In this document: positions 25,373 through 28,483 of the stretch, piece by piece | How the letters are laid out: every line of letters begins with the position of its first letter | How positions within the stretch are numbered: the first letter of the stretch is position 1 | The notes under the pieces: model-generated | Seen by the model: the letters and a program-made list of their open reading frames with translations, nothing else | What the model was told of the DNA's origin: nothing | The model's database searches: none | Made by a program: the position numbers and the translations under genes | DNA from: an uncultured archaeon | GTDB taxonomy: Archaea > Asgardarchaeota > Thorarchaeia > Thorarchaeales > Thorarchaeaceae | Length of the DNA: 32,895 nucleotides | Assembly (NCBI GenBank): GCA_964610875.1 | Contig: CAZSWP010000041.1 | Span: 1 to 32,895 of the forward strand | Direction of reading: 5' to 3'

Positions 25373-26200
25373 CTAGATTTTTCTAGCCCGAACAAGCTCC
25401 AAATGCAGGTCTTCTAAAATTGGAATCAATTTATCACGCTGCTGTGAATTGGTACCTTTCCAATCTATAACAGCAGCAGTGATCTCTTCCTTTGAACGCT
25501 GTATCATCATTTTGATAATATCATGCGTAATTTCATCAAGTGCATATTTTGGTGCCATATGACCTATTCGGATATTCTTCTCTAGAACTAGACGATTGAA
25601 CTTACTTACATAATGAGTGCCACCAAAACCGATGTACGAGGTTTCTTGAATTGGTGCAGTTGCACAGGCCATTACAGCCGCTGCAACGCAACGACCACCC
25701 TCAAGATTCCCCCATTGTGTTTCATCACTACCTAATTCAACAAATAACAAGGGGGTATTGACAGAGGTAGGCCCATGATGTGTTGCTTCCATGGTGACAT
25801 CAAATTCTGAGAGACCTCTATCATTGCGTTCTTTGTATAACTGCCTTAGAGCAGTTGAAACTAGAGAAGCACATGAAATTGAAAGTCTACGAGGAGTGCC
25901 ACCATAAAGCGCTTCATCCATTAGATTTCCAGTGCTATGAACAAGTAGAGCAGGTTTGCCAGATTCGGCTCTGTGACGTGAACAATAGATTAACACTTCT
26001 GCATGGATTTCAGGCTCAATATGGTCGGTGTAAATCAAATCTTTCTTTGATGTGATTAGAAGAATATCATCTATTTCGTGTTTGAATATGTGATTGCCAT
26101 CAAACATAGCGGAGGTCTCTTTGAATTCATAGTCTTCAAGAAGTGCCTTCTTTATTGTTTGACTAGCTATGTCTTTTTCAGATGTTACTAATACTCTCAA
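25373..26200 (-). CDS. dtdA: Archaeal D-aminoacyl-tRNA deacylase (DTD2)
   Basis: SRHRAESGKPALLVHSTGN, EATHHGP, FVELGS, GFGGTHY, GHMAPKY, IDWKG. Confidence 0.95.
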   Translation of the reverse strand: MRVLVTSEKDIASQTIKKALLEDYEFKETSAMFDGNHIFKHEIDDILLITSKKDLIYTDHIEPEIHAEVLIYCSRHRAESGKPALLVHSTGNLMDEALYGGTPRRLSISCASLVSTALRQLYKERNDRGLSEFDVTMEATHHGPTSVNTPLLFVELGSDETQWGNLEGGRCVAAAVMACATAPIQETSYIGFGGTHYVSKFNRLVLEKNIRIGHMAPKYALDEITHDIIKMMIQRSKEEITAAVIDWKGTNSQQRDKLIPILEDLHLELVRARKI

Positions 26201-27453
26201 CTAGTTGCACCGACCGGTTCTACCTTGCATTTCTCTAGCAAGGGTTCTAGACCCAGGTCTTCAATCACAATCTTTACCTTTTCGTTGAAAGCTTTGTAAA
26301 TCTCTGACTCAATACGCTCTCGAAACTCTTCAACCTTGCTTATTTGTCGCTTTATATCATCACCAATTCGGAGCAGGTCGTTCGAGTGATACTCAAGATT
26401 TCGCTTTGCTTCTTCAAGTTCTTCTGCTAATCTCCTATTCTTAGCGTATATATCAGAGCCTGCAAATTCGGTCTTCTTCTTTTCTACGTTTTTAGCTTTC
26501 TTCTGAAGCTCTTTCAAAGAACCCTTGCGAATCTTTTCGATTTCCTCAATAGAACGTCGAGCAAGGCGATCTTTAAGTTTCAATGAATCACGTTCAATTG
26601 CCTCTTCGATTCCTGAGAGTCCTTCCAATAAATCAGGATAGCCATCTCTGTCTTCTGTAATTGCCAAATATGGGTCCTCGAAGTAGTCGGTCAATGCCTT
26701 CTGACCACTCGGACTTATCCGAACACCTGTATCTTGTTGTTGAAATTTCTTGACTGCTTTTCTCAGCGTATTCAATTCCATTGTCAAGAGTCTAGATAGA
26801 TGATCTTGTTCTTCATCCAGATTCAGAAGATCTGAAACATTGGAGGCTTCCTTAAATTCATGAAATACCTTCTTAGCTTCTTTGTATTCTTCTAATGCCT
26901 GTTGACGTTTTAGTTGAACTCCACGAATCTGTACTTCAAATTGCTCTTTTCCGTAGGTGAGTTCTCGCAAAGATTCGATTCGACCACCAATACGTTCAAG
27001 GTCTCGAACCCATTGGTACTCATAGAGAAGTTTTCCAATCTTCTTCAGTTCCTTCATGAGTTCTTTCATGTAATCGTCAAGCTGTTTTATGACATTCTTG
27101 TATTTTTTATCCATTCTTCTAATCCAGCGAGCACCTGCACCCCAGAGCTCTTGAATGAAGTATTGAATCTCTGCCTGCATGGCTTCTGTGCTCTCATAGG
27201 TAATGTCTGACTTAACATCAAAACCGGAAACGATTTCACTTATCTTATTTGCAAATCTGCTAGAGGTGTTGATTGCATCCGAGTCCTCTTCTTTACTTGC
27301 GTCCTTGAGCTGAATTGCTATCGCTTCTACATCCCTAAGAGACCTTTCAACAACCTTGTAACTCTTCTCAGCTTGTTTGATGAAATCCTTGCTACTTTTT
27401 GCAAGCTGGTTCTTGTACCATTTTTGGAGTTGTGGAATGGTCAGAGTTGTCAT
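26197..27453 (-). CDS. Helical coiled-coil hypothetical protein (418 aa)
   Basis: Long charged heptad stretches; 4-nt TTGA overlap with dtdA. Confidence 0.85.
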   Translation of the reverse strand: MTTLTIPQLQKWYKNQLAKSSKDFIKQAEKSYKVVERSLRDVEAIAIQLKDASKEEDSDAINTSSRFANKISEIVSGFDVKSDITYESTEAMQAEIQYFIQELWGAGARWIRRMDKKYKNVIKQLDDYMKELMKELKKIGKLLYEYQWVRDLERIGGRIESLRELTYGKEQFEVQIRGVQLKRQQALEEYKEAKKVFHEFKEASNVSDLLNLDEEQDHLSRLLTMELNTLRKAVKKFQQQDTGVRISPSGQKALTDYFEDPYLAITEDRDGYPDLLEGLSGIEEAIERDSLKLKDRLARRSIEEIEKIRKGSLKELQKKAKNVEKKKTEFAGSDIYAKNRRLAEELEEAKRNLEYHSNDLLRIGDDIKRQISKVEEFRERIESEIYKAFNEKVKIVIEDLGLEPLLEKCKVEPVGATS

Positions 27454-27613
27454 TTCTAAATGCTCCTGCTTACACTGAAACTCGTTTTGTGAAGCTTATA
27501 GACTTTATGAAACCCGTCAGAATGTACGAAGTTTTTTCCAAAAATCGCACATATCACAGTTTATATCACGACTTTCCACACAATAGAAACTGCATAGGAA
27601 ATGTGGTCAAGCG

Positions 27614-28417
27614 ATGTCTGAAGTCCTAAGGACTGGGAACCGGCATCCTCGCCTCGATGCAACATATTCAATTGAATGTGCATCATGAGGAAAGGGTCGC
27701 TACGGTCTCTATCTGAAGAGGCTCAGTTTGATTGACCGCTCAGGTGTGGACAGGTTACTGCTCAGGAATCCTGCCAAGTTCAAAGGCGGATTCTGGTTGT
27801 CCTATATCATGGATGATGAAGTACATCTCGTGGAGTCAACAGAACCTTACGAACGCATGGACATCATCAGGCATGAAGAAGTTGATGACACGCAGCGAAT
27901 TGTCTTACACACAAAACAAAAACAAGGGAATCCAATTCTTGAACTGGAACATCACTTATGGAGTAAGAATAAGCCTATTCTGCTTTGGAAACTCATTGTG
28001 AAGAATTCCAGCAAGAAGGTAATCAGAGACCTCAAAGGGTACGTAATCATGGATTGCGATATTGGAGGTCCGAGAAGCTTCAAAGATGACTTTGGTGCAT
28101 TTGATAAGAAATCCTCATCTTTGATGCTTTGGGATGATAATTCCTTATTTGTTAATATGAGCGCGAGACCAGAACCTAATGGATGGGAAATAGCACCTCC
28201 TCTCAAACTGAAGGTGATTAGAGACCATCGTGACCTTCAGAATAACGAAGAAGTCGGACCCCAGGACGTAGCTGGTGCCCTTCAATGGGATCTCGGAGAC
28301 CTTCAACCCGGCGAGAGTGCAAAAATTGAGCTAATTCTCACCGCAGCAGAAGACTCTGATTCAGCTAGAGCGCTCATCAAAGATGGTGTGGCGTTACTAG
28401 ACAAGAAGCTGCCATGA
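27614..28417 (+). CDS. Candidate selenoprotein (267 aa) with CxxU motif and a predicted beta-sandwich domain
   Basis: ATG 27614 is in frame with ORF 27728-28417: MSEVLRTGNRHPRLDATYSIECAS-TGA(27686-27688)-GKGRYGLYLKRLSLIDR...; one in-frame TGA; SECIS-like hairpin at the 3' end. Confidence 0.75.
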
Positions 28418-28449
28418 GGTAGTACTCTAAAAAAGTGAGGACTATTGAG
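28414..28449 (+). ncRNA. Eukaryote-type SECIS element candidate
   Basis: AUGA-GGUAGUACUC-UAAAAAAGU-GAGGACUAUU-GAG: AUGA/GA core, 10-position stem with one A.G mismatch, A-rich apical loop. Confidence 0.7.
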
Positions 28450-28483
28450 CAAAGGGATGCACCCTAACGCTTCAAAAAAGACT

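What the first reader, a model, noticed from the sequence alone, without database searches (positions are those of the whole stretch)
27614..28449. Hidden candidate selenoprotein: CxxU motif on a non-thioredoxin, beta-sandwich-like protein
Seen: the ORF called from a weak TTG at 27728 continues 38 codons upstream in frame to ATG 27614, just downstream of an AT-rich region with TTTATA near 27560. The only interruption is a TGA at 27686-27688, in the context TGT-GCA-TCA-TGA-GGA (C-A-S-U-G). Established: CxxU is a classic selenoprotein redox motif, and Loki- and Thorarchaeota encode Sec machinery with 3'-UTR SECIS elements. The archaeal selenoproteins I know are SelD, hydrogenase, heterodisulfide reductase and formate/formylmethanofuran dehydrogenase subunits, HesB-like and peroxiredoxin-like proteins. 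Inference: the rest of this protein (LWKLIVKNSS...DLKGYVIMDCDIGG...DDFGAFD...LQWDLGDLQPGESAKIELIL) looks like a galactose-mutarotase/glycosidase-N-terminal-like beta-sandwich and resembles none of those, so it may define an undescribed selenoprotein family that gene callers truncate.
Basis: partly seen in the sequence, partly recalled or inferred. Interest (0 to 1): 0.93.

Follow-up and report, generated by a model that had tools for sequence, protein, structure and literature searches.

The report
Overlooked Asgard selenoprotein, sugar-enzyme-like fold
The gene is almost certainly a real selenocysteine-containing protein of a family missing from published archaeal selenoprotein lists: gene callers cut off its first 38 codons at a UGA that is conserved in about 60 related genomes and is served by a eukaryote-like SECIS RNA signal that contains the gene's own stop codon.

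Summary
ATG 27614 opens a 267-codon frame. Its only internal stop is TGA 27686-88, in the context C-A-S-U-G.

- **Orthologues:** in 36 distinct Thorarchaeia orthologues, codon 25 is TGA in 35 and TGT (Cys) in one. Cys22 is invariant. Both sides of the TGA show coding-type third-position variation. Only 8 of 36 have an ATG at the start the gene callers use.
- **Other Asgard families:** more distant families carry xxxU, or CxxC at the same alignment column.
- **SECIS:** the stop codon TGA 28415-17 lies inside the AUGA core of a eukaryote-like SECIS (28414-28448). It has a 10-bp helix II, an A-rich loop and a 3' GA. In orthologues all eight Watson-Crick pairs of helix II covary.
- **Same design elsewhere in this genome:** SelD and two VhuU-like selenoprotein genes have the same arrangement.
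- **Sec machinery:** the genome has tRNA-Sec(TCA), PSTK, SepSecS and SelB clustered together, plus SelD.
- **Fold:** AlphaFold gives pLDDT 93. The protein is a stand-alone beta-supersandwich like the N-domains of GH15/GH94/GH116 enzymes (Z 23.6). There is no Pfam or NCBIfam match.
- **Novelty:** a 2026 review lists 11 archaeal selenoprotein families, and this is not one of them.

The biochemical function is unknown. This scan had already flagged the same family on other genomes.

The parts
27560..27566 (+). TATA-box-like TTTATAT, 54 nt upstream of ATG 27614
   Evidence: Read directly. TTTA[AT]A lies 49-56 nt upstream of the long-ORF start (mostly -51/-52) in 22 of the 37 orthologue loci listed, and several others have near-variants such as CTTATAT or GCTTTTAA at that place. 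That spacing fits the long ORF, not the truncated call.
27603..27608 (+). Shine-Dalgarno-like GTGGTC just upstream of the start codon (GTGATC in most orthologues)
   Evidence: Conserved 5' leader ...AGCATAGGTA..GTGATCGGTC-ATG in the orthologues. Calling it a ribosome-binding site is inference from complementarity to the archaeal 16S 3' end (own knowledge).
27614..28417 (+). Full selenoprotein CDS: 267 codons including Sec25, plus the TGA stop. It replaces the truncated call 27728-28417.
   Evidence: The AF2 model of the full length has pLDDT 93.2 with the N-terminal 38 residues built as two strands of the sandwich.
27677..27679 (+). Cys22 codon (TGT) of the CxxU motif
   Evidence: Cys in 36 of 36 Thorarchaeia orthologues. 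It is replaced by F/L/W/I in most members of another Asgard family.
27686..27688 (+). In-frame TGA = selenocysteine codon 25
   Evidence: TGA in 35 of 36 orthologues and TGT in 1. This is an invariant Cys/Sec column in the cross-family alignment A5.
28405..28409 (+). 5' strand of SECIS helix I (GAAGC, inside the last codons of the CDS)
   Evidence: It pairs with 28469-28473 in the single-sequence fold. In orthologues a 9-bp helix I between the last codons and the 3' UTR has 4 pairs with compensatory changes. The window's version is shorter and shifted.
28414..28448 (+). SECIS core: AUGA (28414-17, containing stop codon 28415-17), helix II 28418-27 / 28437-46, apical loop UAAAAAAGU 28428-36, 3' GA 28447-48
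   Evidence: It was the top hit of covariance model R1, which was built without the window's sequence (15.8 bits, E 0.32 in 66.8 kb).
28454..28464 (+). Extra conserved hairpin GGG-AUGCA-CCC on the 3' side, between the core and helix I
   Evidence: GGG/CCC is essentially invariant in 8 orthologues, so there is no covariation to test. It is also present in the Cys orthologue. Its role is unknown.
28469..28473 (+). 3' strand of SECIS helix I (GCUUC)

Best explanation
Window 27614-28417 encodes a 267-residue selenoprotein. Transcription starts downstream of the TATA box at 27560, and translation starts at ATG 27614. UGA at codon 25 is decoded as selenocysteine by the genome's tRNA-Sec(UCA) and archaeal SelB. 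Decoding is directed by a eukaryote-like SECIS element that begins at the end of the gene: its AUGA core is made of the last base of codon 267 plus the UGA stop codon. That terminal UGA is too close to, and in fact inside, the SECIS to be recoded, so it terminates translation. These recoding steps are shown by comparative evidence, not by experiment. The protein is a stand-alone beta-supersandwich of the kind that forms the N-terminal domain of GH15, GH94 and GH116 carbohydrate enzymes. Sec25 sits in the turn of the first beta-hairpin (strands 13-22 and 29-40), three residues after an invariant Cys. My inference, at roughly 35-40%, is that the selenol is a redox-active or catalytic nucleophile. 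Its partner would be Cys22 in Thorarchaeia, or a conserved C-terminal Cys in the Loki-type forms that lack Cys22. The substrate is unknown.
For: (1) Conservation. Thorarchaeia orthologues are 41-49% identical to the window protein. Among 36 distinct ones, codon 25 is TGA in 35 and TGT in 1. Cys22, Gly8, Pro12, Arg13, Leu14 and Asp15 are invariant, while their third codon positions vary freely. Mean entropy at codon positions 1/2/3 is 0.69/0.38/1.41 for codons 2-24, 0.56/0.44/0.89 for codons 26-33 and 0.63/0.31/1.30 for codons 34-60.
(2) No alternative start. Codon 34, the start used by gene callers, is ATG in only 8 of 36 orthologues. In the window it is CTG.
(3) Sec/Cys pairing. CxxC occurs at the same column in three complete-genome homologues of another Asgard family, in P0028/P0033/P0042 and in one Thorarchaeia orthologue. 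The column is one of only four invariant columns in A5.
(4) SECIS. AUGA, a 9-10 bp helix, an A-rich loop and GA are present in all orthologues. In A7 (24 sequences, window excluded), 90.9% of cells pair against 26-56% in slid registers, 0 of 500 shuffles reach the observed covariation score, and all 8 Watson-Crick pairs show compensatory changes. The pair next to the core is mostly non-Watson-Crick, as in the SECIS quartet.
(5) Same design in bona fide selenoprotein genes of this genome. A strict pattern scan gave 19 hits in the 3.75-Mb genome. They included this site and the sites just downstream of two VhuU-like genes, both with the stop TGA inside AUGA. The second-best hit of model R1 is the SECIS of the Sec-containing SelD gene, again with CGA-TGA as core and stop.
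(6) Machinery. tRNA-Sec scores 58 bits and has anticodon TCA. SepSecS scores 473 bits. A PSTK-like gene is present, SelB scores 276 bits, all four are adjacent on contig C12, and SelD is present.
(7) Structure. The full-length model has pLDDT 93.2 and pTM 0.91, with the N-terminal extension built as strands 13-22 and 29-40. Residues 1-267 align to the supersandwich domains of 1ug9 and 1lf6 with Z 23.6 and 23.0, rmsd 2.5 A over 226 residues.
Against: There is no direct evidence of selenium in the protein, and no RNA or protein data; no RNA-seq holder was listed. The window's own SECIS scores only 15.8 bits (E 0.32) against the orthologue model, because its apical loop (UAAAAAAGU) differs from the GUAAAGC...GCA consensus and its helix I is short. 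Rfam's SECIS families do not hit the window at gathering score. The functional part (redox selenol) rests only on the motif and on analogy.
Confidence: 0.9

Rival explanations
1. The TGA is a genuine stop. A conserved 24-codon upstream ORF (leader peptide) precedes a separate main ORF that starts further downstream, as annotated.
For: All public gene calls of the family start downstream of the TGA. A Met codon follows 9 codons after the TGA in some orthologues.
Against: Codon 34 is ATG in only 8 of 36 orthologues, with ATC/ATA/CTC/GTT/CTG elsewhere. Codons 26-33, which would be non-coding under this model, show protein-level conservation: G26, G28, G31 and F32 are near-invariant. Cys replaces the stop in several homologues, giving one uninterrupted ORF. 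The AF2 model needs residues 13-40 as two strands of the sandwich. A SECIS is present.
Confidence: 0.03
2. TGA is reassigned genome-wide (to Trp, Gly or Cys), or is read through without selenocysteine.
For: One database protein (P0020) shows W at this position.
Against: That W is a TGA read under another code by a gene caller on a 620-bp contig. All 36 orthologues also terminate at TGA. The genome carries a complete Sec pathway and known selenoprotein genes with single in-frame TGAs. The natural substitute at this column is Cys, the hallmark of Sec.
Confidence: 0.02
3. The TGA is a sequencing or assembly error, or the gene is a decaying pseudogene.
For: The genome is a metagenome-assembled genome with 124 contigs and 5.8% contamination.
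Against: The same TGA occurs in about 60 species-level genomes and in many metagenome contigs. Two Logan assemblies agree base for base. The purifying-selection pattern holds on both sides of the TGA.
Confidence: 0.01
4. Functional rival: the Sec/Cys hairpin is a ligand for a metal or cofactor, as Sec ligates Ni in [NiFeSe] hydrogenase or Mo/W in formate dehydrogenase, or as in a zinc-knuckle-like CxxC. On this view it is not a thiol/selenol redox centre.
For: CxxC/CxxU sits on a beta-hairpin turn. Some Cys homologues have CxxCxxC. A conserved acidic DxDxGG loop (D147, D149, G152) could add ligands.
Against: In most Loki-type members Sec is the only Cys/Sec in the hairpin ([FLIW]xxU), which is too few ligands for a classical knuckle. 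No second knuckle is conserved.
Confidence: 0.25

Closest known systems
Asgard selenoprotein genes with eukaryote-like SECIS (VhuU, VhuD, HdrA, SelD, Prx-like; Mariotti 2016 PMC4989117; Huang 2024 PMC11227280)
   Same: They share the recoding system. All have a 3' SECIS with an AUGA_GA core, a 9-10 bp helix II and an A-rich (G[U/G]AAA-type) apical loop placed right after the CDS. The stop codon UGA doubling as part of AUGA was noted for Loki VhuU.1 (PMC4989117). Here it is seen in this genome's SelD and VhuU-like genes.
   Different: The protein belongs to none of those families. It has no Pfam or NCBIfam hit and its fold is a supersandwich. The SECIS carries an extra conserved GGG-loop-CCC hairpin between the core and helix I.
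N-terminal beta-supersandwich domain of GH15 glucoamylase/glucodextranase (1lf6, 1ug9), GH94 phosphorylases and GH116 (galactose-mutarotase-like fold)
   Same: The whole 267-residue model superposes on these domains: Z 23.6 and 23.0, rmsd 2.5 A over 226 residues, model range 1-267. Foldseek gives E 3e-9.
   Different: Sequence identity is only 7-19%. No Pfam supersandwich family is hit. The protein is stand-alone, with no (alpha/alpha)6 catalytic domain. A Sec or CxxC in the first hairpin is not a known feature of those domains (own knowledge).
CxxU/UxxC thiol-oxidoreductase-like selenoproteins (thioredoxin fold: SelW/T/H, Prx-like, DsbA-like, AhpF-N-like)
   Same: They share a CxxU motif with Cys-containing homologues (CxxC), as is typical for redox selenoproteins.
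   Different: This protein does not have a thioredoxin fold. The motif's Cys is dispensable in most Loki-type members.

Membership tests
Selenoprotein gene (UGA decoded as Sec) | In-frame UGA conserved at the same codon across orthologues | tested here: met
   35 of 36 distinct Thorarchaeia orthologues. About 60 full-length genome matches with one internal TGA. TGA is also present in four other Asgard families.
Selenoprotein gene (UGA decoded as Sec) | Cys-containing homologues aligned at the Sec column | tested here: met
   TGT in L033. CxxC in L098-L100 and in P0028/P0033/P0042. The column is invariant in A5.
Selenoprotein gene (UGA decoded as Sec) | Protein-coding conservation on both sides of the UGA in one frame | tested here: met
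   Third-position entropy exceeds positions 1 and 2 in codons 2-24, 26-33 and 34-60.
Selenoprotein gene (UGA decoded as Sec) | Sec machinery in the genome (tRNA-Sec, PSTK, SepSecS, SelB, SelD) | tested here: met
   (PSTK-like, below the curated cut-off but adjacent to tRNA-Sec).
Selenoprotein gene (UGA decoded as Sec) | Selenium shown in the protein (75Se labelling or mass spectrometry) | not testable with these tools
   No proteomic or labelling data are available.
Asgard eukaryote-like SECIS | AUGA ... GA core flanking helix II | tested here: met
   Window 28414-17 and 28447-48. [AG]UGA and GA are present in all orthologues aligned, and U6, G7, A8, G40, A41 are invariant in A7.
Asgard eukaryote-like SECIS | Helix II of about 9-11 bp supported by covariation | tested here: met
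   8 of 8 Watson-Crick pairs show compensatory changes. 90.9% of cells pair against 26-56% in slid registers.
Asgard eukaryote-like SECIS | Unpaired A-rich start of the apical loop | tested here: met
   UAAAAAAGU in the window and GUAAAG in most orthologues. This matches the G[U/G]AAA reported for Thorarchaeia frhA (PMC11227280).
Asgard eukaryote-like SECIS | Supports Sec insertion in vivo | not testable with these tools
   Needs a reporter assay.
GH15/GH94/GH116 N-terminal supersandwich (galactose-mutarotase-like) | Fold superposes on the domain | tested here: met
   Z 23.6, rmsd 2.5 A, 226 residues aligned.
GH15/GH94/GH116 N-terminal supersandwich (galactose-mutarotase-like) | Sequence membership in a Pfam supersandwich family (for example PF06165, PF21958) | tested here: not met
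   No Pfam family at E <= 1. The language-model search gave only a 0.83 lead.
GH15/GH94/GH116 N-terminal supersandwich (galactose-mutarotase-like) | Fused to an (alpha/alpha)6 catalytic domain | tested here: not met
   The ORF ends at residue 267, and homologues are 223-336 aa.
The 11 published archaeal selenoprotein families (PMC13188914) | Sequence similarity to SelD, FrhA/VhuA/VhuU, FrhD/VhuD, HdrA, FdhA, FwdB, HesB-like, Prx-like, AhpF-N-like or DsbA-like | tested here: not met
   No Pfam or NCBIfam domain of any of these families. All sequence relatives are Asgard hypothetical proteins.

The most novel reading that the evidence does not exclude
This is a twelfth, Asgard-specific archaeal selenoprotein family. 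It would be the first selenoprotein built on a carbohydrate-enzyme-type beta-supersandwich instead of a thioredoxin-like or metalloenzyme scaffold. It is present in more than half of 400 Asgard genomes sampled. The Sec/Cys residue is one of only four invariant positions, which implies a catalytic selenol carrying out chemistry not yet described for this fold. Natural Cys versions exist in complete Lokiarchaeia-type genomes that could be studied directly.
Probability: 0.8. Interest if true: 0.8.

Novelty: new member of a known kind. Interest (0 to 1): 0.78.

Why it matters
Published surveys of Asgard selenoproteomes searched only for known families: Huang 2024 found 7 families, and a 2026 review counts 11 archaeal families. 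They therefore missed this one, although it is nearly universal in Thorarchaeia (77 of 85 genomes) and common in other Asgard lineages (228 of 400 genomes).

- **Annotation:** it corrects a systematic error, because every public gene call is truncated at the N-terminus.
- **SECIS data:** it adds about 60 covarying SECIS sequences, with an unusual extra hairpin, to the debate on how the eukaryotic SECIS arose.
- **Chemistry:** it shows Sec on a fold with no selenoprotein precedent.

The natural Cys forms make the biochemistry testable without a Sec-expression system.

Tried and rejected
- **Family libraries:** Pfam and NCBIfam gave no family for the read-through protein or for the Cys homologues.
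- **Rfam:** no family hit the window at gathering score. I do not count this against the SECIS, because the short and divergent Asgard SECIS may simply not be captured.
- **Whole-genome search with R1:** The genome search found nothing in the own genome. Only 150 of 1526 first-look candidates were scored, so the blank is uninformative.
- **R1 and VhuU:** with filters off, R1 did not retrieve the two VhuU-like SECIS elements. They were found only by my pattern scan.
- **Protein atlas:** I sent only the window's own called ORF, P0002.
- **Paralogues:** tblastn found no paralogue in the own genome.
- **Expression:** no RNA holder was listed, so there is no evidence on expression.
- **Cys orthologue and the SECIS:** I first read the Cys orthologue L033 as having lost its SECIS. 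That was a parsing error. It still ends CGA-TGA and keeps a weakened hairpin, about 7 of 9 positions paired. I do not claim SECIS loss.
- **Residue distances:** I could not measure distances between Sec25 and the conserved D147/D149 loop, because model coordinates are not exposed.
- **SECIS outside Thorarchaeia:** I did not resolve the SECIS of the f23, f30 and f20 homologues. The f22 (Loki-type) 3' UTRs show clear AUGA-helix-GA elements 10-30 nt after the stop (read by eye).

Full report
**Observation.** The window has ATG at 27614 and a frame that stays open to TGA 28415-17, apart from a single TGA at 27686-88 (codon 25) in the context C-A-S-U-G. The mechanical ORF list starts the gene only at TTG 27728, 38 codons downstream. 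TTTATAT lies at 27560-66. The CDS ends at 28417, not at 28449 as in the finding.

**Homologues and the upstream extension.**
- The read-through protein has no Pfam or NCBIfam family.
- Database searches returned only Asgard hypothetical proteins of 223-238 aa, all called from a point downstream of the TGA.
- I fetched the DNA of nine such loci. In every one that reaches far enough upstream, the frame continues across a TGA at the same column to an ATG (two short contigs are cut off inside the extension). The peptide is conserved: M-x-E-x-L-x-T-G-x-R-x-P-R-L-D ... C-x-x-U-G.
- One database protein with W at this position is a TGA read as Trp by a gene caller.

**Thorarchaeia-wide tally.**
- A profile search of 400 genomes of the phylum found the family in 228. 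In the window's own family it was found in 77 of 85 genomes. About 60 full-length matches each contain one internal TGA.
- Record titles identify these genomes as Thorarchaeota.
- In 36 distinct orthologues, codon 25 is TGA 35 times and TGT once. Cys22 is invariant.
- Codon 34, the callers' start, is ATG in only 8 of 36.
- Mean entropy at codon positions 1/2/3 is 0.69/0.38/1.41 upstream of the TGA, 0.56/0.44/0.89 for codons 26-33, and 0.63/0.31/1.30 downstream. Both sides are therefore under purifying selection as one reading frame.
- In most orthologues a TATA-like box lies about 49-56 nt upstream of the long-ORF start, and most also have a GTGATC motif directly before it.

**Other Asgard families.**
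- Homologues in four other families of the phylum also carry an in-frame TGA near the N-terminus. It is CxxU in three of them and mostly [F/L/I/W]xxU in the large AT-rich family f22.
- In f22, 24 of 28 sampled genomes have the TGA and 4 have a decayed N-terminus.
- Three single-contig genomes of a further family have CxxC instead. Metagenomic homologues P0028, P0033 and P0042 also have CxxC.
- In the cross-family alignment, the Sec/Cys column is one of only four invariant columns.

**SECIS.**
- All orthologues end in [A/G]-TGA. The last codon is nearly always CGA, CCA or GCA.
- The base before the stop plus the stop codon form the AUGA core. A 9-10 bp helix follows, then an apical loop that starts GUAAAG (UAAAAAAGU in the window), then the 3' arm and an invariant GA-G.
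- On eight diverse loci, RNAalifold and pair counting gave 90% pairing against 36-52% in slid registers, with 8 of 9 helix II pairs compensatory. A helix I forms between the last codons and the 3' UTR.
- On 24 orthologues, with the window excluded, all eight Watson-Crick pairs covary. The pair next to the core is mostly non-canonical, as in the eukaryotic SECIS quartet.
- Covariance model R1, built from these 24 sequences, ranks window 28410-28454 first in 66.8 kb (15.8 bits, E 0.32). It ranks the SECIS of this genome's Sec-containing SelD second, and there too CGA-TGA is both stop and core.
- A strict pattern scan gave 19 hits in the 3.75-Mb genome. Three of them are this site and the sites just after two VhuU-like selenoprotein ORFs, which have the same stop-in-core design.
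- Mariotti et al. described this overlap for Loki VhuU.1 and argued that a UGA this close to the SECIS cannot be recoded (PMC4989117). Huang et al. report AUGA_GA cores and G[U/G]AAA loops for Thorarchaeia (PMC11227280).
- The single-sequence fold of the window element gives helix I (28405-09 with 28469-73), helix II, and an extra hairpin at 28454-64.

**Sec machinery.** tRNA-Sec (58 bits, anticodon TCA), a PSTK-like gene, SepSecS (473 bits) and SelB (276 bits) lie side by side on contig C12. SelD is present both as a Sec form and as a non-Sec form.

**Protein.**
- AlphaFold2 with a 29-sequence alignment gives pLDDT 93.2 and pTM 0.91.
- Residues 13-22 and 29-40 form a beta-hairpin with Sec25 in its turn.
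- The whole chain superposes on the N-terminal supersandwich domains of GH15 glucodextranase and glucoamylase, GH94 phosphorylases and GH116 (Z up to 23.6, rmsd 2.5 A, 226 residues).
- There is no catalytic (alpha/alpha)6 domain.
- Function is not established. I favour a redox-active or nucleophilic selenol, with metal ligation as the main rival.

**Novelty.**
- Huang 2024 searched only known families and found seven.
- A May 2026 review counts 11 archaeal families, none of them this one.
- Sun 2021 and Mariotti 2016 list only known families.
- Further literature searches found nothing on this family.
- This scan had already flagged the same family on other genomes. My tests here were done independently on this window and its relatives.

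**Verdict.** This is a genuine, systematically mis-annotated selenoprotein gene of an undescribed Asgard family. The recoding mechanism is of the known Asgard type, and the biochemical role is open.

Noticed in passing
window 28454-28464; same position in L001-L009 and L022-L087: A GGG-(A/G)(A/U)GC(A/G)-CCC hairpin lies between the SECIS GA and helix I. It is conserved in all Thorarchaeia orthologues, including the Cys one. This genome's VhuU-like SECIS elements also have a hairpin directly after the GA (CGACC...GGUCG). This may be a lineage-specific three-way-junction SECIS.
   Followed up: partly
window 27686-27700 (codons 25-29): The bases just after the UGA are unusually conserved at the nucleotide level. 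Codon 28 (GGT) has zero variation at all three positions in 36 orthologues, and codon 26 is nearly always GGN. This may be a sequence context that favours Sec insertion over termination.
   Followed up: no
L052-L061, L098-L100 (C-termini): Loki-type and related homologues carry a C-terminal tail of about 40 residues that ends in a conserved Cys 1-3 residues from the end (...EGC...DEC...EWCK). Thorarchaeia forms lack the tail but always have Cys22. It may act as an alternative resolving Cys for the Sec.
   Followed up: no
L054, L055, L060, L061, L105-L124 (5' ends): In the AT-rich family f22 a strong GGAGGT is followed, after an in-frame stop, directly by K-I-V-L-K-V with no ATG, GTG or TTG. 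The start is probably a non-canonical ATT/ATA codon. Four genomes of one genus (L062, L063, L110, L113) have a decayed N-terminus, and at least three of them (L062, L063, L113) keep a SECIS-like 3' element.
   Followed up: partly
L098-L100, upstream of the CxxC homologues: In the three complete genomes with the Cys form, the gene sits immediately downstream of, and on the same strand as, a gene whose C-terminus looks like a small Ras/Rab-type GTPase. In Thorarchaeia the conserved neighbours are instead a divergent ~410-aa protein with no Pfam hit, a D-aminoacyl-tRNA deacylase, an HTH protein and a 161-aa protein.
   Followed up: no
G000 contig C12:21063-25267: The Sec machinery forms one cluster in the window's genome: PSTK-like, tRNA-Sec, SepSecS, SelB.
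   Followed up: yes
window 26197-27453 (-): The divergently transcribed 418-aa neighbour has only weak coiled-coil-type Pfam hints (BAR, PhoU, E > 0.03). It is syntenic with the selenoprotein gene in Thorarchaeia. Its function is unknown.
   Followed up: no
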